Positions 44,641 to 64,000 of a DNA stretch of 64,000 bases are shown here, one piece after another. Position 1 is the stretch's first letter, and every line of letters starts with the position of its first letter. Made by a program: the position numbers and the translations under genes. The notes below the pieces were generated by a model. The model saw only the letters and a program-made list of their open reading frames with translations, did no database searches and was not told where the DNA came from. The stretch is from the human T2T-CHM13v2.0 reference genome, Homo sapiens. The stretch lies in the NCBI RefSeq assembly GCF_009914755.1, contig NC_060941.1; one strand, given 5' to 3'.

Positions 44641-45438
44641 TTTCTCCTATAAGAGTGATTTCTACTATAAGTTTTGGGACTCTGTTCCATTCTTTAGGCA
44701 CCCAGAATCACCAATCAGACAGACATAATTTTTGCCCAAAGCCCCATTGTCGGGGGACTATCTGGAATTTTAGGATCCCTCCTCAGACAAGCAGGCCTAA
44801 CAAAGGCTATTCCTGAAGCTAGGATATGGGGAGCCTCAGAAATGATATCCTTCTTATTCATATGATGAGAAGTGAGGACAAAAAGCGTCACTCTTCCAAC
44901 CCTGGAGATCCCTTTCCTCCCTCAGGGTATGGACCTCCACTCCATTTTGAGGCATAACATCTTTATACGACAAGGATAAAGTCCCAATACTAACAGAAAA
45001 AAATACTAACTTTATAGGACAAGGATAAGGTCCCAATACTAACAGGAAAAATGCTTAGGACTCTAACAGATTTTTGAGAATGCATCAGTAAGGGCCACTA
45101 AATCCGATTTTCCTCAGTCCTCTTTGTGGTCTAAGAAGAAAGGCAAGGGTGCAGGTTTTTGAGAATGCATTGGAAAGGGCCACTAAATCTGAGCTTCCTT
45201 GGTCCCCTTTGTGGTCTAAGAGGAAAACTAGTGTTTCTGCTTCTGTGTCGGTGAGGGCAACTATTCTGATAAGCAGGGTCCAGGGACCATAGCAGGTTCT
45301 TGGGCAAGAGGGGATCTGTTGCTGCATCGGTGAGCACAACTATTCTGCTCAGCAGGGTCCAGGGACCATTGTGGGTTCTTGGGTGGGGCACAGGGGGGCA
45401 ACAAACAAACCAAAACCACAGGAAGTTTTTTCTTTCAG

Positions 45439-50728
<5,290 letters not shown>

Positions 50729-50780
50729 AAAAGATAAGGGAAAACCTACATAATCTTTAACACCTCTCCTTCCCCCTTTA

Positions 50781-50942
50781 ATGGAATCCATTTACTAGTT
50801 CATCATATTATTAAGCAGCATACTAATCATACTCTTTGCAATAGGACTATATACTGTAGCTCTTGCCAGGACGAAAATCCTAATCACATCAACCTTCTTT
50901 CTATCATCCTTCCTTCTGACAGCAATTTACTCCTGCCTTTAA
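50781..50942 (+). pseudogene. Small hydrophobic ORF between pol and env (53 codons, one premature stop)
   Basis: MESIY*FIILLSSILIILFAIGLYTVALARTKILITSTFFLSSFLLTAIYSCL*. Confidence 0.5.
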
Positions 50943-50955
50943 CAGACTGGATAAA

Positions 50956-51084
50956 ATGATTTTATCTTCCAAGGTACCCTCTTTCCTTTCCTACTTACTC
51001 TTTGCCTATCTATCCCTCCTGCTACCTTGGATACTCCACACAATCGCCCCTACCCTTCCACTAGCTCCTAATTACCTCTACAAG
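50956..51084 (+). pseudogene. env: env N-terminus (signal peptide), truncated
   Basis: aaaATG; MILSSKVPSFLSYLLFAYLSLLLPWILHTIAPTLPLAPNYLYK; retroviral similarity stops here. Confidence 0.75.
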
Positions 51085-51976
51085 TCTTGCAGACTTTAAA
51101 CTGTCTTATTTTTCTTATTAAACTAGAACCCATAGAGTGAACTTTTCTCAATTTGCTTATGACAGGTCATCTACTTCTGATAACTGTTCACTAATTTTGA
51201 CTTTGCCCCTATCTCACATTCCTGTTTCTTGTTTCATTTTTTTTTTTCATAACTAACTAAGGACCTATATCCTAAGTACCAAAAGAGAACAGTCCCCCTT
51301 ACATTCTAACATTCTGGCTAAGGGTGAATTAGGGCTTTACCTTTGTTGAGCCACGTTGGCAGAATATATTGAGAATCTTTGACATCTGTTTAATTCAGTA
51401 TCTGGTACATGTTAGGAGTAGACACTAAATATGAATTTATCAGATTTCCAAACATACTACCTTTGGAAAAAGTTAGTCTTGGGTCTATGAAGAAATGAAG
51501 TTGGAGATAAATAAGCCTTAGATGTGAGTTCAGGAGAGATTTTCTCACTTCTATGAGCCAGGGCTCAATATAACCTGGATTCTGAGCCAAAGAGAGTCCT
51601 AGACCAGATCAAATAGAGGTGTTAAGCCTTGGATAAACATATCAGAAAGACATAGTAAACAGGCCTAGGAAGTATTTCAGGCTCTGTACTTGTATAATAA
51701 TTCTATATGTTGTATGGCCTTTCCATTATCCAAGACTATTCAGTAAAGTGTTATTAACAGTTGCAGCCTGACTATAATGATACGCAGAAAATTAGAAAAG
51801 TACTATGCCCACGTGGGGTAAAGTGATACAAAAGGAAGCAATTTCCCCTTTCTTGAGTAGTCCTCCTTCTTCCTAGAGTAGAGAAGGGTGAAGGCAGGTG
51901 GTAGCTATCATTAACAGAGGACAGCTACATCTGAAGAAGAAAGGAAGAAAAAGAGAGAGATTTTAACTTGTACCAT

Positions 51977-52323
51977 TGATATGGTTTGACTTTGTCCCCA
52001 CTCAAATCTCATCTTGAATTGTAGCACCCATAATTCCCACATGTGGGAGGGACCAGGTGGGGGATAATTGAGTTTCCCCCCATACTGTTCTCTCAGGAGT
52101 AAATAAGTCTCACAAGATCTGATGGTTTTATAAGGGGTTTCCCCTTTCACTTGGCTCTCATTCTCTCTTGCCTGCTGCCATGTAAGACGTGTCTTTTGCC
52201 TTCCACCATGATTGTGAGGTCTCCCAGCCACGTGGAACTGTGAGTCCATTAAACCTCTTTTTCTTTATAAATTACCCAGTCTTGAGTATGCCTTTATCAG
52301 CAGCATGAAAACAGACTAATACA
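51977..52323 (+). mobile_element. THE1 (THE1B/C-like) MaLR solo LTR
   Basis: tgatatggtttgactttgtccccactcaaatctcatcttgaattgtagc...acagactaataca; TSD accat/actat. Confidence 0.93.
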
Positions 52324-53471
52324 ACTATTATAATTTGAATACAAAAAAGAACTATGATCTTATTTTGTAGTCAAAGGCAGGTGAAGTCTAGAATATTGGA
52401 GTTCATGTACTTCCTTTTCAACGTTTTCTACTGTACTACAAGTTTCTCCAGAGAAAGAATCATGACATTTTTATCTCAGTACTCCTGGTGTCAACATTAT
52501 TCTTGCCATGATATGTAAGTGTTTAAGTGTTTAATAAATGCTCATTCAGTCAATGAGAGAGAAATAAAGCAGGAAAGTTTTTAAAGGTAGTTTAATCCTT
52601 TAATTCATTTTGACATGTATTTATTATTTTCCTAAAACATGAAATATATTTTTACCAAGAACTTGAAAGTACAACTATGAATAAGGTATGATTCTTGCTA
52701 ACAACTTACAGCTTAGTGAAGGAGACATTGATGCAACTAACTCTAATATGAAACATGTGCAAACAGAACACTTTCTTATGAGTGTCAGAGGAGGCATTTT
52801 GGAGAAAATGTGGGCCTGACAGTCAAATAGGATCATGACCTCTGGAGAAGAACAGGGTATAAAAAGTGAGAGTATTTCCTAGGAATAATAATGTGGAGGC
52901 CAAGATGGGCTGACACCCCAAATCATTCATTCAATCATTCAGTCATCTATTTAACAGACGTTTACTAAATATTTAATATGTGAAGCACTCATGAAACAGA
53001 TCATTATGATGAGGAAAAGAGGTATATCAAGATATTCATTTTCTAATGAAGAATAAGAGGGGAATGCCCAGTGAAAGGAGACATTTTGGGCATTTCTAGG
53101 CTTAGACAAGGCATTCTGAGGGCTTCTATGCAGCATGTCTTCTTTCTCAGAGAACAAGAGGAGGCTACCTGCATTGGGGAAAACCAGGGAAGGTCTTGAT
53201 ATGGCATTTCCAGTGCCAGACGGCAGGGCCTGGAATGGATCATAAAGGGCCAGAACAGGGTATGGAGATCCTAAAAAGTATAGGAATGGTTTAGGGATGT
53301 ATTTGAGAAATGGTTACACTTCAGGGTAGAAAATCAAACCAAAAAAATCAAGGTGAGCAGTAAGCCAAAGGGCAGAGGTAACACTAAGCTGAGGTCTAGG
53401 AATTCAAGCCCAAAGCACTAGGTAAGGTTTAGAAGAGGTAAGTTATTAGCTGGGTTTAAAGACTGACTATA

Positions 53472-53780
<309 letters not shown>

Positions 53781-54351
53781 TCACTATAATTTATAGAGGC
53801 AATCCACACAGTTCCTCCTCCAGAAGGGCATTATGGCTTATGTTAGAGGGTGGAAGCAAAAGGGGACCAAAAAAAGGAATAGAAGGAGTTGGAGGAGTTG
53901 GTGAAAAGCTGAAATGACCATCAGTAATCTGTAAGAAAACTTCAGTTGGCTTCCATCCCTGTGTTAGAATTTCAAGGGAAGACCCATTTTCATTGGTATG
54001 ATAATGACATGAATATAGTTTGTAAATTCTGGAGTGGATAAATTTATTGTTTAAGCCAGAACCAAGATAATTATAAGGGTATTGTCCAAATAAGAGTAAG
54101 ACATAATCTCCAGAAAATGAATCTTGGATTAAAAATAGGGGAGAAAGATCATCATCTAATAATTCGTGTACACAGCAGAGATTCACTTCAAATAAACAAT
54201 GTACTAGGAGAACAGAGAAACCTTAGATGTCCAAATACATGGAAGCGGGAGAGACTTGTTCCCTGAAAATATAGAATAAAAAATGGGTCCCTGTTTCATT
54301 ACAGAAGTGTTGGCATGACTGTTGTTGCCATAAGCATTAATATCTACTCCT

Positions 54352-54656
<305 letters not shown>

Positions 54657-55688
54657 CTACTCCCAATGGTTTAGGTAAGCAAGTACCCTAAATGCTGATC
54701 CAATGACATTTTATCTTATTTTATAATTTTATCTTACAATTACCTTACTTAATACATCTTTATGCTTTTATCTCACTCACTAAATTAATGGTTTTTAATC
54801 CCCAGTGTATATTAAACAACCTGGAAATTTTTATTTTAAATAAATATTTTAGAGCTCTACCAAGAAATTGTGATTTAATTGTTCTAGGTTACACCTTGGA
54901 TGCCAGTATTTTCAAATCTCCCAGTTAATTCTAATGTGCATTCTGAGTTGCAATTTCCACAGCACATTAAAATATCATCAACTACAAAACAGGGTCCCAA
55001 TGGTTTATTTGGATTGGTAGAAAAATCTAAAGTTGAGATTCAGAATCATTGCTTATTAAAGATTACTTTGGAATGAAAGTAAAGATATTCAAAAATGTTC
55101 TAAAATATTCGTCCACGAGTATAGAAGGCTTCTGAATCAAAATATCTGAGAATAATCATTACCTGTCTTCTTCCTCAAAATCCAAAAGAAATGATGGGAG
55201 TTATAAATACATAACAGTCCAAGGAAACCGCGAAGCATCCTATTCCACATATCAAAATAATGAGGAATTTCTGGAAGATAAAAAGTAGATATGACAAAGA
55301 AACTGACACTCAGTACATGCTTGAGATGTGACTAATGAAAAAGTAAGTTTTCCCCCTTAAAACTCTGGAATAACAAATGATGAGAGGCAGCAGGAAATAG
55401 AAGCAAGAGCCAGAAGTAGAAAATTCAGCAAGTAATTAATTAAAGACTGCAAAATAGCTACTCTGTCTCTGGCTCGCAGAGCATCTGGCAACATGGGATG
55501 CTAGAAGTGCTGAAAAAGGATGGGAATAGATATTTTTCATATAAAGAGAATGTTAAAATGTACAAACTCAGTTTAAGAATAAGTGAATACCCATGTGACC
55601 ATGACTCCAGTTAAGAATAGAACATTGCTAGTACATTAAAATGCCTCTTTTGGATAACAACTTCTTTTTCCCCTAAAAGTAACTACTA

Positions 55689-56086
<398 letters not shown>

Positions 56087-56479
56087 CTACTCTTTTGTGA
56101 TTGCTTTTCTCGCTCAACTATACATTTGTAAGTTTCAAACTTGTTGATGTATGTACCTGCAATTCATTCCTTTTCACTGATAGATAATAATCTAGTTTAT
56201 AAATATACAACCATTTTTTAACCAATTCCTGTTGAAGAGTATTTAGATTGCTTCCATTTTTTTAAATTTGATGAACAGTACTGCTATAAATATTTTTGTA
56301 AAAAAGCTTGATGCACATGTGTAAACAATTCCCTTTGTTATACACATCGGAGTAATATATTCATATGCTCAACTTTCTTAGGGCATGCCAACCTATTTTC
56401 AAAATACTTGTACCAATTTACACTCCCACCAGATGTATATGTGAGATTCTGTTGCTTTGCATTTCTTGCCATCATTTGA

Positions 56480-56752
<273 letters not shown>

Positions 56753-58089
56753 TGAATCATTAAAGTTTAAAGCTTAATCTTGCGTTTATGTAAAATTATC
56801 TCATCATGGCTTTCATCTGAATTTATTTGATTACAAATGATAGAAACTTTTTGTAGTTTATAAGTCATTTGGGTTGCCTTTTTTGTGAATTTTTTTATTC
56901 AAACTTTTACCATATTGAGCTGCCCATATTTTTCTTACTTGTTTACAATATTTCATTAAGTTATTAATTCTAAAACTATTGGGCACTTTCTATGTTCCAG
57001 GCCCTGTTCTAGACACTTGAGCTACATCATTAGAACACACACAAAATACACATATCCCTAAGTAAATATTCTCTGCTCTTAGACACCTTCTAGTGTTGAA
57101 AGTGAAAGGGGAAATAGGCAATAAAAATACAAAGGTAAACTATGTTGTATTTTATAAGTTAATAAGTTCTATCAGTTAAAAAAAGAAAAAAAATTAAACA
57201 AGGTAAGGGGTGTTAGATTGCTGGTGCTGCATGGGAATGGAGCAAATTACAATGTAAAATATTATAAGAATAAGCCTTATGAAGATACATATGAGAGAGT
57301 GAGTACATGAATATGCAAAGTTGAAGGCTTCATCATCCTGGGTCCTACAGTCACTGTGCTGATTAGAGATCCCTTACTGACCTGCACTGGGTATAAAATA
57401 TGAGCAAAGAAGTTTATTTTGTCAAGCTATTGAGATCTGCAGGTTGCTCTTTACTAGGTCATCACCTGGCTCATCCTACCTGAGGCAGTTACAGTAAGAC
57501 ATGCAAATAAAAAGACTATTGTGATATTCTTGGAGCGTGGAATTCTTTAAGCAAAGGAGACAACCCAGAAATTGTAAAAGAAGGGAACAAATTTGATTAC
57601 ATAAAAACTAAAAGCTCTCTGTAGGAAACCTACCATGGAAAAAGGATAATAGATACATAATACTTTGTTGAAAAAATGATGATTTATAGACAAGGAATAG
57701 ACATCCATAATGTACAAAGAGTTCTTAAGAATAAGTAACAAATAAAAATTAATTCTAGAAACATAGACAAGGAATATGGATAAAGCATTAATATAGAAGA
57801 TCTGTGTTACATAACATAGAAGAATATTCACAATACTTTAGAAACACACACACACACATATTCCATACCTTTTTAAAAGTACACATATATAACATATAAA
57901 ATGGAAACACACACATATATGTGTGTGTGCGTGTATACATACACATACGATATATATTTTATTTGTATGTGTAAATAAAAAGTTATGGATAACATATAAT
58001 AATATATTAACTATTAGAGTTTGAGAACTTTTTTATCAACTGCAAGTTCTTTAATTTTACAAAACAGTTAAAAATGTCAGAGTATGGTT

Positions 58090-58645
58090 ATGTTTGGTAA
58101 ATTCCAGTTAGCAATCGAAAATTATGTAATTTTGGTTATACTGCCCTATAAATATCAATTAGGTCAAGTTGGCTAATTATATTGTTCACAGTCTCTTTAT
58201 GCTGATTGATCTCCCTGTTAATGTAAGTTATTGAGAGGGAAATATTAAAATCTCAAACAATTATTGCAGATTCACCTGTTCCTTTTTTGGGTTCTGTCTT
58301 CTTTTCTTTACATATTTTGAAGCTATGTTATTAAGGAAAATACATTTAAGATTTTTTTAATTATTTTTTCTTTTTTGCTGTTCTTCATGAACTGTAGATT
58401 AAAGATGGTTATATCTTCCTGTGAAAAAGAGATTTTATCATAAAATACCCTTATTTTTCTCTCATAACACTTGTTGTTTAGATGTACTTTGTCTGATACT
58501 ATTACAGTCATATCAGTATTCTTTTGCGTAGTATTTATTATACATAGCATATCTTTTCCATTTTTTTATTTTTAACCTATATGTATGTTTATTTCAAGTG
58601 TGTTCCTTGTAAACAGCGTATAGTTGGAGCTTTTAAAAAAATTTA
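58090..58645 (-). mobile_element. Old L1 ORF2 (endonuclease region) fragment
   Basis: T-rich L1 text tattgagagggaaatattaaaatctc...catattttgaagctatgttatta. Confidence 0.65.
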
Positions 58646-58648
58646 GTC

Positions 58649-58944
<296 letters not shown>

Positions 58945-58959
58945 TTTACTCAAACAGAT

Positions 58960-59760
58960 TTGACTTTGAACAAGTATGCAACATCATTGGTCAGTATGAA
59001 AATGCATTGCAAAACCATAATTAAATGCCTCCTTAAATCCAGCAAAATCGTTAAAATTTAAAAGAATGACAATAGCAAGTTTTGCAAGAATATAGATGAA
59101 CTAGAATTCTTATACATTATTAGTAGGAGTGTTAATTGGTTAATAAAGCCACTTTGGAAAATGTTTTAGCAGTATATACTACCAAACTTGAACACATGGG
59201 GCTCTAAGACACAGTAATTCTACTCCTAAGTATATACCCAACAGAAATTAGATGAGTGTATAGTCCAACATAAGACATGCACAAAGTATTCATAGCATCT
59301 TCAATAATCACAGACAAAAACTGAAAATTAACCAAATGTCTATCAATAGGAATATTGATAACTAAACTTTGGTGCACTCATGCAGTGATATACACACAGC
59401 AATATAAAAGAACTGATATGCAGGAAAACATGAATAAATCACATTGACATAATGTTGAGTGAAAAAATCTAGACAAAAAGGTGTATATACTGTTTGATTC
59501 AAATTATATAAAGTTTAATAAGAGGCAAAATTAACCTTGGATGACAGATACCAGACCATGGTTACTTCTGGGAGAGGATGATTGGTAATAAGATTGATTG
59601 GCATGAGGAAACCCTCTGATGTGCTGAAAATGTTCTGTCTTGACCTGAGTAGTGGTTTCATGGGTATATACAAATATAAAATGTCAACAATCTGTACACC
59701 TGAGATTTGTACATTCTATGTAAGCTATACCTAAATTAAAAAAAGAAAATAAAATAAATA
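58960..59760 (+). mobile_element. L1M (L1ME/MC-like) 3' end
   Basis: gccactttggaaa...gtaattctactcctaagtatatacccaacagaaat...cataatgttgagtgaaaaaa; A-rich tail. Confidence 0.75.
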
Positions 59761-60536
59761 TCCAGTTTTTCATATTTAGAAAAATCCAAAAATCAGTTTA
59801 TATGAAACCGACTTAACATACACCATTTTGGGTTTATGTTATCTTTCCATAACCTAATGTTGGTTAAAATGAGGTGCTTTCCTATAGTCCTGTTCAGCAG
59901 TGCATACATATTTTGGGTGTTACTGTTTCTAAGTTTTTGAGCTGTGAAACTGATCCTTAGTCTTCATGAAGGGTTGTGCTGAAGACACAATGAGGAGATA
60001 TGAAGGGAAACATAAAAGTGTCCAGCTCTGAATTTTATTGCTCTTTCCCCTCCAGATAAATAATTTGCCTAGATAAATGATTTATTAAGAATAATCATTT
60101 TCTTTTATGACCTTACCCAGGTATTTCTGTTGATGTTGAGATGGCTGACTAATGACATTTTTGGAAGCATTTTCATCATTCAAGAAAGTAGTGGTTATAT
60201 TCATGCTAGTGAAATGTGCTAATGTTTTCTCTTCAAAAGCACAACACATTTTGTCCCTTTGAAAAGATCAATTGAAGTTTCTTTAAAAGCTCAGCTAAAT
60301 ACACACCACCCTGTGAAAGATCACCTCTAGTAGAAAGTAGACAGCTGGAATCTCTGGGACAATTAAGTAGATGAGATGTGAGAACAGAGGTGCTGTTTTA
60401 ATGGTTTTGTGACTGATTCTAAGCTCAATGGAATTATTATGCCAACTTTTCCTCTTGTCTTGCTTTGATGTGGTAGTGGATACTTTTGAGAATGAATATT
60501 GGCAATAATCCTCCTGGCAGCATATAAGCAACTTAG

Positions 60537-61044
<508 letters not shown>

Positions 61045-64000
61045 GAAAATTTGTTTATACTAATCATGCCCAGAAAGAAGCATGAAAGATGTATAATCCA
61101 GCTGGAACTGAGAAGGTATATAGTAGATTTTATAGTAATGATTTCAAGAGACAATCCATTAAATTGATTTAAATAGTACTTGATGGATAATACTTGATAA
61201 TAACATTAGCTCTCTTTATGTTAATTTTTAGCACTTTGAAAAAATGTGCATATTTAAAATCTAGACATACCTTAATTCTTGTGAACATTCAGAACAGACA
61301 TTAATTGGCTTTTAATCTCTGTTATGCATTGATGACAAAGCATTAGAGTGGGAACTTGGAAATTACTGGTCAAAGGTGATGAGGAACAAGTGGCTCTTTT
61401 CTTCCTTTCATTCAGTTCATGTGGGTTCTCTTTAAAACCCGTGCTCTACACAATCAGACCACAGTATTCCCTATTTCCCACATGGCAGGATGGGTGAAGA
61501 TTGGAACTTCTATAGTCCTCCATATTATTCCCTCTTCCACATTATTAAACTTTTTTCAATTAGGCTTCAAGTTCCTTCAGATAGATTATAAGTGAGCCCT
61601 CTGGATTCAAAGGAAGCTCCCTCGTTACCTAGAGCCCAGGTATTCCGGCTTCTCAGGTAACCAGAAATTAATCTTTTCATCATCTCTCTATGGAGAGTGA
61701 CAAGTTTTTAGAGAGTTACAAATAAATTTAGCATCTTTTCAGCGATTCATTTTGCATTAAGAAAAACCACAGCCACTGAATAAAAAATAAAAAATCCTTG
61801 AGGACTCTACTTCATTTTATGCCTAGTGGCAAATATTACAGGATCATGCAGGCAGTTAGAAATGGTTCAGACCTAATTTAACTTTTCTGAAAAATGGCTT
61901 GTAGCCCATTGTCTACAGGATGCCAAAACATCTGATGACAGGTGAACACCTCAGCTGGCCATCTGGATAGTTAATAAATGTCAATCATCTGGGAGTGCCC
62001 AAAGAGCTGAATGGAAGACTGAATTTTCACTTTACTTCCTTTTTTCATATCTTTTCTCCATATTTTGTCCTTTTCACTACTCTTATTTCCCTTCTTATTC
62101 ATCTATAATAACAGCTATTGGGTGAGCAGAATTTTCTTCCAGAATGACATGCCTTTCTCTCTGCCAGAGTCTCATCTTCCTTCCTCCATAGGACTTAACG
62201 TTGGTTGAGGATTCAAGCAAGTAATAAATTGTTAATAGGCTTCCCCACATGTAATTGATGTTGGCATTCTTCCAGGGCTCTTCATGTGAGTTTGGGGTGT
62301 AAATGTAGTTGTCCAACAGATAAAATGTGTGCAAAGCTCTGAACACTCACTAAATTTCCCAAATTAATAACATCTTTGGTGCTTTTGATCTTTATGATAA
62401 AGAGAGAGATGAATATATATTTGGCCATCCAGTCTACCTTGAATTTGTGTTCCTTATCATCACATCTTGCTGTCTGTAAAACTTTGGCAATTTTTTCTTT
62501 TACTTTGAGTCTCCTTTCGCTCACCAGTGAAAACAAAATAACCTGTGAGAGTTGCTGTGTGGACCAAATGAGATACCAAAATCTGAAAAAGTGCCTTGGA
62601 AACTGTTGAAGGATTTACAATTGTACAATATTATTTACTATGGTAGGAAGCATAGCATCAGGAGCTGAATACAAAGCAGAGACTTAAAAGCTTAGAAAGA
62701 CCTCAATAACAAGAATCATGTCATTGTATGATTCCATGCTCCAGATATCGGCTGAAATGAAGTGATTCTTACAAACGTTTGCTAAATGAGAAAAAAACTT
62801 TAAAAATCTATGAAAAAGAAGAATATTTAAATTTTAGTACTGTTAACATTCTAATAGATTCAATCTGTTGTATAAAGTGATTGTTTTCAACCTGCTAAAA
62901 GTCAATCATTACTTATTTCTTAAGGTCTTACTATACACCAGGCCCTTGACTAGGACTACAACAAGTGTAAAGAAATCATTCAATATCAAGTGGAGAGAAT
63001 TTTTGTTTGGGGTAGTGAATTCAGCCTATGTGTTTAATTCTCTTTTGTGTTCTTCACCCTTAGCCCCTTCCAATGAGTAAATTTTGTCAACACGACAAAG
63101 AATGAAAATGTTGGAAACCTACAAAATTTTTGAAAGGAAAACTTTCCAACCCCCAAGTCACTGGATACAGATAACTTGCCTAAGGATTGTGTGTAATAGG
63201 AGACTCCAGAAGGAGGTCAGCAAAGCAACCAGTCTGAGTGACATGGGCTGGAGGTAAGGCTGGAAGTCTCCCTGCCTCCCCAGGTAGTAGTCAAGTAATA
63301 GACACTGAGCAAACAGAGATTGGGAATATTGCTTACAGGTTAAATACATAATTGCTCAACTAAAAAGAGAAATGGAGGTAGAAAGGAGTCTACTGGAAGT
63401 TGTAAATACTATGTTGAATTAGATGACCATCTAGAGAATTCTTAGAATGTCCTAGAACTCAAAGGCAAATAATGAAGAGATTCACATAATGATAAAAAAT
63501 AAAAGAGACAAAGAGGCATGAAGAATAGATCCAAGATTATATATACACATATATATGTGAGTGTATACACACACAGAGTCCTCCTCTGCTCTCTATTTTG
63601 TGAAATAACTCCACCTATAATAAATACCATACCCAGATGAGTACAGAATATTTCTATATTCTTTGAAAATATTTTTCTGTAATGTTTAAACTATTTCAGG
63701 GAACTGAAAAAAATGAATTTAATTAATGAGAACAAAACCAAAATCTTAAAAAGAGAACTCAGAAAACCACACAGACCTGTCTGAGATACAGATGCAAAAA
63801 TCCTAAATTCAAAATAAATTACTTAAAAGAATAAACTGTCAACACTATTCTACTTTTGTCTAATGAACTTGTTTGTTAGTTTAAAAAAACTTACTTGGAT
63901 TTTGATTAATATTTTATTTAAATGATAGATTGATCTTTGGACAACAAATTTATTTACCTGAAGTACTTTCTAACTTTCTCAATGCTAAAACAATATTCTC

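What the first reader, a model, noticed from the sequence alone, without database searches (positions are those of the whole stretch)
50781..50942. Hidden 53-codon two-helix membrane ORF between ERV9 pol and env (vpu/env-like layout)
Seen: pol stops at 50728 and env starts at 50956, a 227-nt gap. Established: pol and env of simple gammaretroviruses usually abut or overlap. Seen: the gap holds ATG(50781)..TAA(50942) = MESIY*FIILLSSILIILFAIGLYTVALARTKILITSTFFLSSFLLTAIYSCL. This has two ~21-23 aa hydrophobic stretches joined by R-T-K and a single defect (TAG at codon 6, one substitution from TAT/TAC). Its ATG has a weak -3 base (ttaATGG), there is no ATG in any frame between it and the env ATG (aaaATGA), and it ends 13 nt before env. 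Inference: an accessory membrane microprotein (viroporin or restriction-factor antagonist) made from the env mRNA, with env reached by leaky scanning, as in HIV-1 vpu/env. I know of no named ERV9 gene here but cannot confirm novelty.
Basis: partly seen in the sequence, partly recalled or inferred. Interest (0 to 1): 0.8.

Follow-up and report, generated by a model that had tools for sequence, protein, structure and literature searches.

The report
Hidden small membrane gene before env
Between pol and env of this dead HERV9 provirus lies a broken copy of a tiny two-helix membrane-protein gene that HERV-H and older human endogenous retroviruses also carry, so these supposedly simple retroviruses probably had an accessory gene that I found described nowhere.

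Summary
Window 50781-50942 is ATG..TAA, 53 codons, with a private TAG at codon 6. It lies between the pol stop (50726-50728) and the env ATG (50956).

It is not a chance frame. The same ORF is fully intact in 24 of 43 HERV9 copies in this genome. A 56-codon homologue sits at the same place in HERV-H, and 58-60-codon homologues occur in at least two older, high-copy class I families.

Between families, second codon positions are most alike and third positions are near background. In the first 28 codons pN/pS is 0.46-0.52 in the ORF frame against about 0.9-1.7 in most shifted frames. A known env block shows the same pattern.

AlphaFold2 gives a helical hairpin (pLDDT 84.6). Pfam, PDB and source names give nothing.

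Best reading: an ancestral accessory microprotein gene placed directly before env. This window's copy is dead.

Not shown: which mRNA carries it, whether it is translated, and what it does (viroporin-like is inference). Weak points: within-family tests are mixed, the second helix has no codon-level signal between HERV9 and HERV-H, HERV-W lacks the ORF, and many HERV-H copies share a stop in it.

The parts
45334..46558 (+). gag remnants of the HERV9 provirus (matrix and p30 capsid pieces)
   Evidence: Pfam Gag_MA (E 2.3e-05, below the family cut-off) and Gag_p30 (E 3.5e-21); frames.
47201..50728 (+). pro-pol, broken by several stops and frameshifts (protease, RT, RNase H, integrase including the MLV-type C-terminal domain)
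   Evidence: Pfam RVP, RVT_1, RNase_H, Integrase_H2C2, rve, MLVIN_C; the stop-to-stop pieces lie in different frames.
50726..50728 (+). pol stop codon TAA
   Evidence: a stop at the homologous place in 39 of 40 copies and the same pol tail sequence before it.
50729..50780 (+). 52-nt spacer between the pol stop and the ORF start; pyrimidine-rich, with AG sites at its 5' end that could be a splice acceptor
   Evidence: The spacer is 52 nt in 21 of 40 copies and 58 nt in 16 of 40. Acceptor heuristic (inference only).
50781..50942 (+). the small ORF: 53 codons plus TAA; a dead copy of a conserved two-helix membrane microprotein gene
   Evidence: homologues; codon tests.
50796..50798 (+). premature TAG (codon 6), private to this copy
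   Evidence: TAG at this column in 1 of 40 copies.
50784..50858 (+). predicted helix 1 (codons 2-26), the best conserved part (LLFAxGLY core)
   Evidence: AlphaFold2 on an intact natural copy with alignment A1: helix 2-26. Conserved columns. Codon-position signal.
50865..50936 (+). predicted helix 2 (codons 29-52), which follows the short loop and begins with the nearly invariant Lys/Arg (codon 32)
   Evidence: AlphaFold2 helix 29-52; K32 is nearly invariant. Hydrophobic character is kept, but the sequence is weakly conserved between HERV9 and HERV-H.
50943..50955 (+). 13-nt spacer between the ORF stop and the env ATG; 2 nt shorter than in the other 39 copies, so the frame relation to env is changed only here
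   Evidence: 15 nt in 39 of 40 copies, 13 nt in 1 of 40.
50956..51087 (+). 5' end of env (signal peptide region). Homology to other HERV9 copies stops at 51087; the rest of env and the 3' LTR are missing
   Evidence: identity to other copies falls from about 0.85 to about 0.5 after 51100; (env of another copy matches only 50995-51087, and no LTR repeat lies downstream).

Best explanation
The interval is a dead copy of a genuine retroviral gene. It is a 53-60-codon ORF for a two-helix (hairpin) membrane microprotein that lay between pol and env in the exogenous ancestors of HERV9, HERV-H and at least two older class I (gamma-like) families.

Shown: the ORF recurs at the same place. Its start and stop are kept. 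Its divergence between families has the signature of protein constraint.

Inferred (about 0.5): it was translated as the first cistron of an mRNA that also carries env. Env would be reached by leaky scanning past a weak start, or by reinitiation at the closely apposed env ATG, as in the vpu-env arrangement.

Inferred more weakly (about 0.3): the protein acted in internal or plasma membranes as a viroporin-like or adaptor-like accessory factor that helps Env maturation or virus release.

The copy in this window cannot make it. It has a stop at codon 6, and the provirus has a truncated env and no 3' LTR.
For: (1) HERV9 copies. ATG in 37 of 40, TAA in 38 of 40, no net indel in 31 of 40. Fully intact in 21 of 40, plus 3 of 3 further copies, giving 24 of 43. 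This decay is similar to the last 53 pol codons (stop-free in about 21 of 40) and the first 53 env codons (24 of 40, my count).

(2) Chance. An ORF of at least 53 codons arose in 1.5-2.7% of shuffles. One that was also this hydrophobic arose in 0 of 5000.

(3) HERV-H. A 56-codon homologue starts 6 nt after the pol stops. blastn saw no nucleotide similarity there.

(4) Register and codon positions. An ungapped comparison anchored at the ATG (147 pairs) gives 0.55 nucleotide identity at offset 0, against 0.20-0.37 at 18 shifted offsets. Identity is 0.56 at position 1, 0.74 at position 2 and 0.34 at position 3.

(5) pN/pS. For the N block (codons 1-28) of HERV9 against HERV-H, pS is 0.78 and pN is 0.37 (ratio 0.48), against 0.91 and 1.47 in the shifted frames. 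Fisher p is 0.0007-0.005 in three real pairs.

(6) Wider family. A profile search of 1.84 billion proteins gave 28 hits, including diverged groups that bridge HERV9 and HERV-H. One such protein matches 150 scored places of 306 candidates in this genome. In L110 the ORF lies between integrase and env remnants, and that integrase is 59% identical to HERV9's.

(7) All six between-group comparisons give identity pos2 > pos1 > pos3 and a frame-0 pN/pS of 0.46-0.52. A known env block gives 0.75 / 0.87 / 0.42.

(8) AlphaFold2: helices 2-26 and 29-52, mean pLDDT 84.6. GRAVY is 1.3-1.5.

(9) Layout. The ORF start context is weak (T or C at -3) in both families. Env ATG lies 15 nt after the stop in HERV9 and overlaps the stop as ATGA in group 3.
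Against: Within-family tests are mixed.
- HERV9 shared variants give 16 synonymous to 12 non-synonymous against 9.7 synonymous expected (P about 0.006) at minor allele count 3 or more. At 5 or more it is 7:7, not significant.
- In the same noisy alignment the pol and env controls showed no signal at 2-3 or more. Only env did at 5 or more.
- Pairwise within HERV9, pN/pS is 0.48 against 0.63 and 0.84 in shifted frames.
- Within old HERV-H it is 0.69 against 0.65 and 0.88, which is no signal.

The C-terminal block of HERV9 against HERV-H does not single out the frame (0.68 against 0.63 and 1.11). For groups 3 against 4 the shifted frames are also low (0.48, 0.64).

14 of 40 HERV-H copies share an in-frame stop at codon 31, most of them with a frameshift as well. 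That lineage therefore multiplied without the full ORF.

HERV-W, the close relative of HERV9, has only about 135 nt between the integrase motif and env, and no such ORF.

Acceptor-like sites inside the ORF and just before env could exclude the ORF from the env mRNA.

HERV-H has a further ATG right after the ORF stop in 40 of 40 copies, which fits simple leaky scanning to env badly.

There are no transcript, ribosome or peptide data. Only one genome was searched. Only 3 DNA copies were used for each of groups 3 and 4.
Confidence: 0.75

Rival explanations
1. It is a regulatory upstream ORF. The frame is kept because ribosomes must translate and terminate just before env to set the level of Env synthesis. 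The peptide itself has little or no function of its own.
For: The ORF stop is tightly apposed to the next start in three lineages: 15 nt in HERV9, TAA followed directly by ATG in HERV-H, and an ATGA overlap in group 3. The start context is weak. The second half of the peptide is poorly conserved between HERV9 and HERV-H. A HERV-H lineage multiplied with the ORF cut at codon 31.
Against: Residues of helix 1 are conserved across four groups while third positions are saturated. A pure spacing or termination device does not need this. Length (53-60 codons), two-helix hydrophobic character and a basic loop residue are kept. The two roles do not exclude each other.
Confidence: 0.12
2. It is a chance open frame in a pyrimidine-rich spacer that holds the env splice acceptor, branch point and polypyrimidine tract. 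The hydrophobic reading would follow from T-rich codons.
For: The gap is 32% T and 11% G. A second frame across the gap is also open for 73 codons in the window. Strong acceptor-like sites lie inside the ORF's 3' half, with pyrimidine fractions of 0.89 and 0.78.
Against: 0 of 5000 shuffles give an ORF this long and this hydrophobic. The ORF recurs in families with no detectable nucleotide similarity. Conservation has a 3-nt period with position 3 at background level. A cis-acting RNA signal would conserve all three positions alike.
Confidence: 0.05
3. It is a remnant or alternative N-terminal leader of Env: an extended signal peptide read through or once continuous with env.
For: In 39 of 40 HERV9 copies the ORF is in the same frame as env, separated by one TAA and four sense codons. 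In 2 of 40 copies the stop is lost.
Against: The stop is kept in 38 of 40 HERV9 copies. In HERV-H env is in another frame, 115 nt further on. In group 3 the env ATG overlaps the ORF stop in another frame. So no frame relation to env is conserved.
Confidence: 0.03

Closest known systems
HIV-1 Vpu and the bicistronic vpu-env mRNA (recalled from general knowledge)
   Same: A small membrane accessory protein is encoded immediately upstream of env. Its start codon is in a weak context, so env can be reached by scanning ribosomes.
   Different: Vpu belongs to a lentivirus, not a gamma-like virus. Vpu has one membrane helix plus a cytoplasmic domain, whereas this ORF is a bare two-helix hairpin of 53-60 residues. 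There is no sequence relation (0 Pfam families for the HERV9 and HERV-H ORFs at E up to 1). Shared-mRNA expression is not shown here.
Class II viroporins: hepatitis C virus p7 and alphavirus 6K (recalled)
   Same: About 55-63 residues, with two hydrophobic helices joined by a short loop that carries a basic residue.
   Different: Those are cut out of polyproteins of RNA viruses. There is no sequence or significant fold match (best E 1.5; none). Oligomerisation and channel activity are untested.
HTLV-1 p12/p8 (ORF-I), a small hydrophobic two-helix accessory protein of a retrovirus (recalled)
   Same: A retroviral accessory protein that is little more than membrane helices.
   Different: It is encoded 3' of env in the pX region of a deltaretrovirus, is about twice as long and carries proline-rich motifs. 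No similarity was found.
sORF2 of Drosophila MDG1-group LTR retrotransposons (bioRxiv 10.1101/2025.03.14.642691; abstract and outline seen)
   Same: A short transmembrane accessory ORF in LTR retroelements that had been overlooked. It shows that such microproteins can be central to transmission.
   Different: It occurs in insect Ty3/gypsy elements without env. It is described there as fusogen-like and as acting in place of Env. It is not related in sequence or position.
Pre-gag ORF of HERV-W, HERV-H and related class I HERVs (PMC6995185, passages seen)
   Same: Another non-canonical putative ORF noted in the same group of endogenous retroviruses.
   Different: It lies between the 5' LTR and gag, is long, and by that paper's own account differs in sequence between lineages. 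The passages that my term search showed in that paper do not describe an ORF between pol and env.

Membership tests
HIV-1 Vpu (Pfam Vpu family) | Sequence match to the Vpu family | tested here: not met
   Pfam scan at E up to 1: 0 families for the HERV9 and HERV-H ORFs. The other group members gave only sub-threshold hits to unrelated membrane families.
HIV-1 Vpu (Pfam Vpu family) | One N-terminal membrane helix followed by a cytoplasmic domain | tested here: not met
   AlphaFold2 gives two helices (2-26 and 29-52) that fill the whole 53 residues.
HIV-1 Vpu (Pfam Vpu family) | Gene directly upstream of env and translated from the same mRNA | tested here: inconclusive
   The position is met in HERV9, HERV-H and group 3. 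The mRNA structure could not be tested, because acceptor-like sites lie on both sides of the ORF start.
Class II viroporins (p7 / 6K type) | About 60 residues forming a helical hairpin with a short basic loop | tested here: met
   The loop Lys/Arg (K32) is nearly invariant.
Class II viroporins (p7 / 6K type) | Homo-oligomer that conducts ions | not testable with these tools
The one complex job gave no verdict and counts neither way (see Tried and rejected).
Env leader / signal peptide extension | Continuous reading frame with env | tested here: not met
   Stop kept in 38 of 40 HERV9 copies. The frame relative to env differs in HERV-H and group 3.
Protein-coding gene under purifying selection | Divergence concentrated at third codon positions and pN below pS in this frame only | tested here: met
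   Met for codons 1-28 in five of six between-group comparisons, with an env positive control. In the sixth (groups 3 against 4) the shifted frames are about as low. Not met for the C-terminal block of HERV9 against HERV-H. Mixed within families.
HERV9 (ERV9) provirus | Nucleotide homology of the pol-env junction to other genomic copies, with gamma-type gag, pol and env domains | tested here: met
40 scored matches at 85-91% identity; Pfam domains.

The most novel reading that the evidence does not exclude
HERV-H, HERV9 and at least two older, high-copy class I families descend from gamma-like retroviruses that were not 'simple'. They carried a dedicated accessory gene for a 53-60-residue two-helix membrane protein, translated ahead of env from a shared mRNA. 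It has no named relative in Pfam, the PDB or the sequence sources searched here. Many genomic copies are still open, including copies in HERV-H, which is recalled to be highly transcribed in human pluripotent cells. The peptide could therefore still be made in human cells.
Probability: 0.5. Interest if true: 0.85.

Novelty: new variant of a known kind. Interest (0 to 1): 0.75.

Why it matters
Gammaretroviruses and their endogenous class I relatives are textbook 'simple' retroviruses with only gag, pro, pol and env. A conserved extra gene shared by HERV-H, HERV9 and older families would change that picture.

It would add a new family to the small membrane proteins of viruses. It would also give a concrete candidate for functions that are otherwise unassigned in this lineage, such as Env maturation, release, receptor or restriction-factor handling, or control of Env translation.

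The human genome holds dozens of still-open copies. The claim can therefore be tested directly with existing long-read RNA, Ribo-seq and immunopeptidome data, and by expressing natural alleles.

For this particular locus nothing follows: the copy is broken and the provirus is truncated.

Tried and rejected
- Three papers were not held: La Mantia 1991 on ERV9 cDNAs, Lopez-Sanchez 2005 and Jern 2005 in J Virol. The published ERV9 and HERV-H splice maps could therefore not be read.
- The splicing review PMC9631305 (passages) and PMC3253121 (passages) give no acceptor positions.
- Complex prediction with four copies of the ORF returned 'no answer'. It counts neither for nor against oligomers.
- Foldseek against viral models: 0 matches at E up to 0.001.
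- PDB sequence profile search: 0 matches.
- Pfam: nothing over cut-off.
- ESM Atlas: only unnamed small clusters at 0.88, below the level that counts.
- IMG/VR scan: 173 pattern matches, none confirmed.
- The shared-variant test on a whole-locus MAFFT alignment proved a poor instrument. The pol and env controls showed omega near 1 at low allele counts. I lean on pairwise and between-family tests instead.
- A simple acceptor heuristic gave seven candidates in HERV9 and thirteen in HERV-H, so it decides nothing.
- HERV-FRD (syncytin-2 locus): a 50-codon hydrophobic stop-to-stop piece lies in frame just before env, but it has no ATG and the family profile does not match it. I left it open.
- The family of loci L031-L036, L039 and L042 has pol overlapping env and no such ORF.
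- Rejected readings: pol read-through, because the ORF is in a different frame from pol in both HERV9 and HERV-H (my arithmetic on the coordinates), and an Env leader.

Full report
THE OBSERVATION. ATG is at 50781 and TAA at 50940-50942, giving 53 codons that read MESIY*FIILLSSILIILFAIGLYTVALARTKILITSTFFLSSFLLTAIYSCL*. The TAG is at 50796-50798. Upstream, Pfam finds protease, reverse transcriptase, RNase H and integrase domains up to the MLV-type integrase C-terminus. The pol frame ends at TAA 50726-50728. Downstream, ATG 50956 opens a signal-peptide-like env N-terminus. The gap is 227 nt.

THE PROVIRUS IN THE WINDOW. It is a wreck. gag and pol are broken into many pieces. Homology to other copies stops at 51087. 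No LTR repeat lies downstream within the window. Whatever the ORF was, this locus cannot express it together with env.

OTHER HERV9 COPIES. The window's own genome could be searched. A 501-base query gave 40 scored matches out of 81 candidates, at 85-91% identity. Two divergent copies used as queries brought only three more, so about 43 copies carry this junction.
- Among the 40 aligned copies, the ATG is present in 37, the TAA in 38, and 31 have no net indel in the ORF.
- 21 of 40 are fully intact, and so are all 3 further copies, giving 24 of 43.
- That is about the decay seen in neighbouring genes. The last 53 pol codons are stop-free in about 21 of 40. The first 53 env codons are open from an ATG in 24 of 40 (my count).
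- So the ORF was open in the viruses that made these insertions and has decayed neutrally since. Nothing suggests host selection on any locus.
- The TAG at codon 6 is private to the window copy (1 of 40).
- The other 39 copies have 15 nt, not 13, between the stop and the env ATG, which places the ORF in frame with env.
- 'No ATG before env' holds in 12 of 40 copies. 24 of 40 have one ATG in between, which I read as the in-frame Met at codon 31 seen in many copies.

CHANCE. An ATG ORF of at least 53 codons arose in 74 of 5000 and 107 of 5000 mononucleotide shuffles of the window gap and of an intact copy's gap. It arose in 36 of 2000 and 54 of 2000 dinucleotide-preserving shuffles. None of the 2 x 5000 mononucleotide shuffles gave an ORF that long with GRAVY of at least 1.3. 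So the hydrophobic reading is not a by-product of base composition.

A HOMOLOGUE IN HERV-H. A Pfam env search of the genome supplied env loci of other families. tblastn with the peptide of an intact HERV9 copy hit five HERV-H loci over its full length, at 41% identity. In HERV-H the ORF has 56 codons, for example MSLIHPFILLSVFILTLLFATGLYAVTPTTWTEPQKLVIPTIFCLVILLFTVLNCS. It starts 6 nt after the double pol stop. It ends at a TAA that is followed at once by another ATG. The env ATG lies 115 nt further on, in another frame. blastn had found no nucleotide similarity between HERV9 and HERV-H in this stretch.

IS THE LIKENESS CODING? The first 28 codons need no gaps, so I compared them anchored at the ATG, which avoids any bias from protein-guided alignment.
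- Over 147 pairs (21 intact HERV9 copies by 7 old HERV-H copies), nucleotide identity is 0.55 in register, against 0.20-0.37 at the 18 offsets from -9 to +9.
- In register it is 0.56 at first, 0.74 at second and 0.34 at third codon positions. Third positions are thus at background.
- By Nei-Gojobori counting, pS is 0.78 (saturated) and pN is 0.37, a ratio of 0.48. The two shifted frames give 0.91 and 1.47. Three real pairs give Fisher p of 0.0007-0.005.
- A block of env that is certainly coding gives the same picture between the two families: 0.75, 0.87 and 0.42 over 76 pairs.
- A conserved RNA signal would hold all three positions alike, and neutral sequence would have lost all three.

A WIDER FAMILY.
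- A profile of 31 natural ORFs (alignment A1) searched against 1.84 billion representative proteins gave 28 hits at E up to 0.001.
- Besides HERV9-like and HERV-H-like entries there are diverged groups. Examples are MEIIYYTTLAGIAMLALLFAIGLYMVAPSNWNIGQRVSIAVVFCLIIILIAGIIV... and MTIIYHATLGKIVIVTLLFAIELYTVAAPTVWNSVCKIIIAVIFCLIIILITGLIITGEI. They combine the HERV9-like N-terminus with the HERV-H-like loop and second helix.
- One of them matches 150 scored places out of 306 candidates in this genome.
- In locus L110 the ORF lies between integrase pieces and env remnants (a signal-peptide-like start and the membrane-anchor tail). Its integrase is 59% identical to that of HERV9, so it belongs to a different family.
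- A fourth group has 59 codons.
- All six between-group comparisons of codons 2-28 give identity pos2 > pos1 > pos3 and a frame-0 pN/pS of 0.46-0.52. Shifted frames give about 0.9-1.7 in five comparisons and 0.48 / 0.64 in the sixth.
- The alignment of 16 natural sequences has an invariant LF, the L of GLY, and an F in the second helix. Its signature is roughly L-T-x-L-F-A-x-G/E-L-Y-x-V-x-P ... K/R ... F-C-L.
- HERV-W lacks the ORF. Only about 135 nt separate its integrase motif from the syncytin-1 ATG.
- Another family has the classical pol-env overlap.

LAYOUT AND EXPRESSION.
- The ORF start is in a weak context in both families: CCTTTAATGG in 31 of 40 HERV9 copies and ACCCTTATGA in 26 of 40 HERV-H copies. 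HERV9 env has A at -3.
- The ORF stop is always close to the next start: 15 nt in HERV9, TAA-ATG in HERV-H (40 of 40), and an ATGA overlap with the env start in group 3.
- The frame relative to env differs between groups, and the ORF is not in the pol frame. Read-through fusion proteins are therefore unlikely.
- This fits a two-cistron mRNA in the manner of vpu-env, but it is inference. Acceptor-like sites lie upstream of the ORF and also inside it or just before env. I could not read the old cDNA papers.

THE PROTEIN. AlphaFold2 with A1 gives helices 2-26 and 29-52, with mean pLDDT 84.6 and pTM 0.56. GRAVY is 1.3-1.5. A Lys/Arg in the loop is nearly invariant. No Pfam family passes its cut-off. 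No PDB chain matches. No viral model matches at E up to 0.001. The resemblance to two-helix viroporins such as p7 or 6K is one of shape only and is recalled, not tested.

AGAINST, AND LIMITS.
- Within-family tests are weak. The HERV9 shared-variant test is significant at low allele counts only, and its pol and env controls failed at those counts.
- Pairwise omega within HERV9 is 0.48 against 0.63 and 0.84. Within old HERV-H it is 0.69 against 0.65 and 0.88.
- The second helix shows no codon-level signal between HERV9 and HERV-H.
- In HERV-H, 14 of 40 copies share an in-frame stop at codon 31, and 15 of 40 have a net +1 length. A prolific lineage therefore did without the full ORF.
- The HERV-H loci with the longest open env frames carry an extra 1-nt deletion upstream that puts the second helix back in frame. 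Four other copies have different compensating deletions. The order of these events cannot be settled here. They may reflect selection for the full protein in env-competent lineages, or chance.
- Only the human genome was searched.
- The family names HERV9, HERV-H, HERV-W and syncytin are my labels from the sequences and from recall.

KNOWN OR NEW. Nine of the ten full-text searches found no description of an ORF between pol and env in HERV9, HERV-H or other gamma-like ERVs. The tenth brought only the Drosophila sORF2 preprint. The 'Accessory genes' section of Jern et al. 2005 (PMC1224870, passage seen) names none for gamma-like ERVs. It says that unknown accessory genes are hard to recognise. 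Grandi et al. 2020 (PMC6995185, passages) discuss only a pre-gag ORF. Subscription papers and supplements were not searched, so novelty is probable, not certain.

VERDICT. The route of expression and the function remain inference. The window's own copy is dead.

Noticed in passing
window 51087-64000: The HERV9 provirus is cut off about 130 nt into env. Homology to all other copies ends at 51087, and no copy of the 5' LTR region recurs downstream in the window.
   Followed up: partly
L059 450-734 (HERV-H; also L049, L053, L058): A second ORF of 94 codons starts at the ATG that directly follows the small ORF's TAA. That ATG is present in 40 of 40 HERV-H copies. The ORF overlaps the env start in another frame. 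Pfam finds nothing, and its status (gene or chance) was not tested.
   Followed up: partly
HERV-H copies L047-L108, L059 coordinates 336-400: The small ORF exists in three states. Old copies are intact. 14 of 40 copies share a stop at codon 31, most of them also with a 1-nt insertion. The copies nearest to L059, including the loci with the longest open env frames, have a further 1-nt deletion that restores the frame. Four other copies carry different compensating deletions.
   Followed up: partly
L050, L051, L056, L057, L060: A HERV9-like variant in which the RNase H / integrase N-terminal region runs through a Lys/Glu/Arg-rich low-complexity insert straight into the env transmembrane subunit. 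Integrase C-terminus, the small ORF and the env surface subunit are all absent.
   Followed up: no
L111 900-1083; proteins P0020, P0025: The group 3 ORF ends in ...DKKEA. This has the form of a C-terminal di-lysine (KKXX) ER-retrieval signal (recalled motif). The other groups do not have it.
   Followed up: no
L044 472-621 (syncytin-2 locus, HERV-FRD): A 50-codon stop-to-stop piece with one strongly hydrophobic stretch lies in frame directly before the env ATG. It has no ATG, and the family profile does not match it. It may be a decayed distant relative or chance.
   Followed up: partly
window 50729-50780 and the same place in L002-L070: A 6-nt length difference in the spacer before the ORF splits the HERV9 copies into two sets: 52 nt in 21 of 40 and 58 nt in 16 of 40. 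It is a handy subfamily marker.
   Followed up: no
L109, L111 (group 3 elements): Two of three sampled group 3 elements have no pol upstream of the small ORF and an internally deleted env, yet keep the ORF open. The family has at least 150 matches in the genome, so a non-autonomous element may have spread while retaining this ORF.
   Followed up: no
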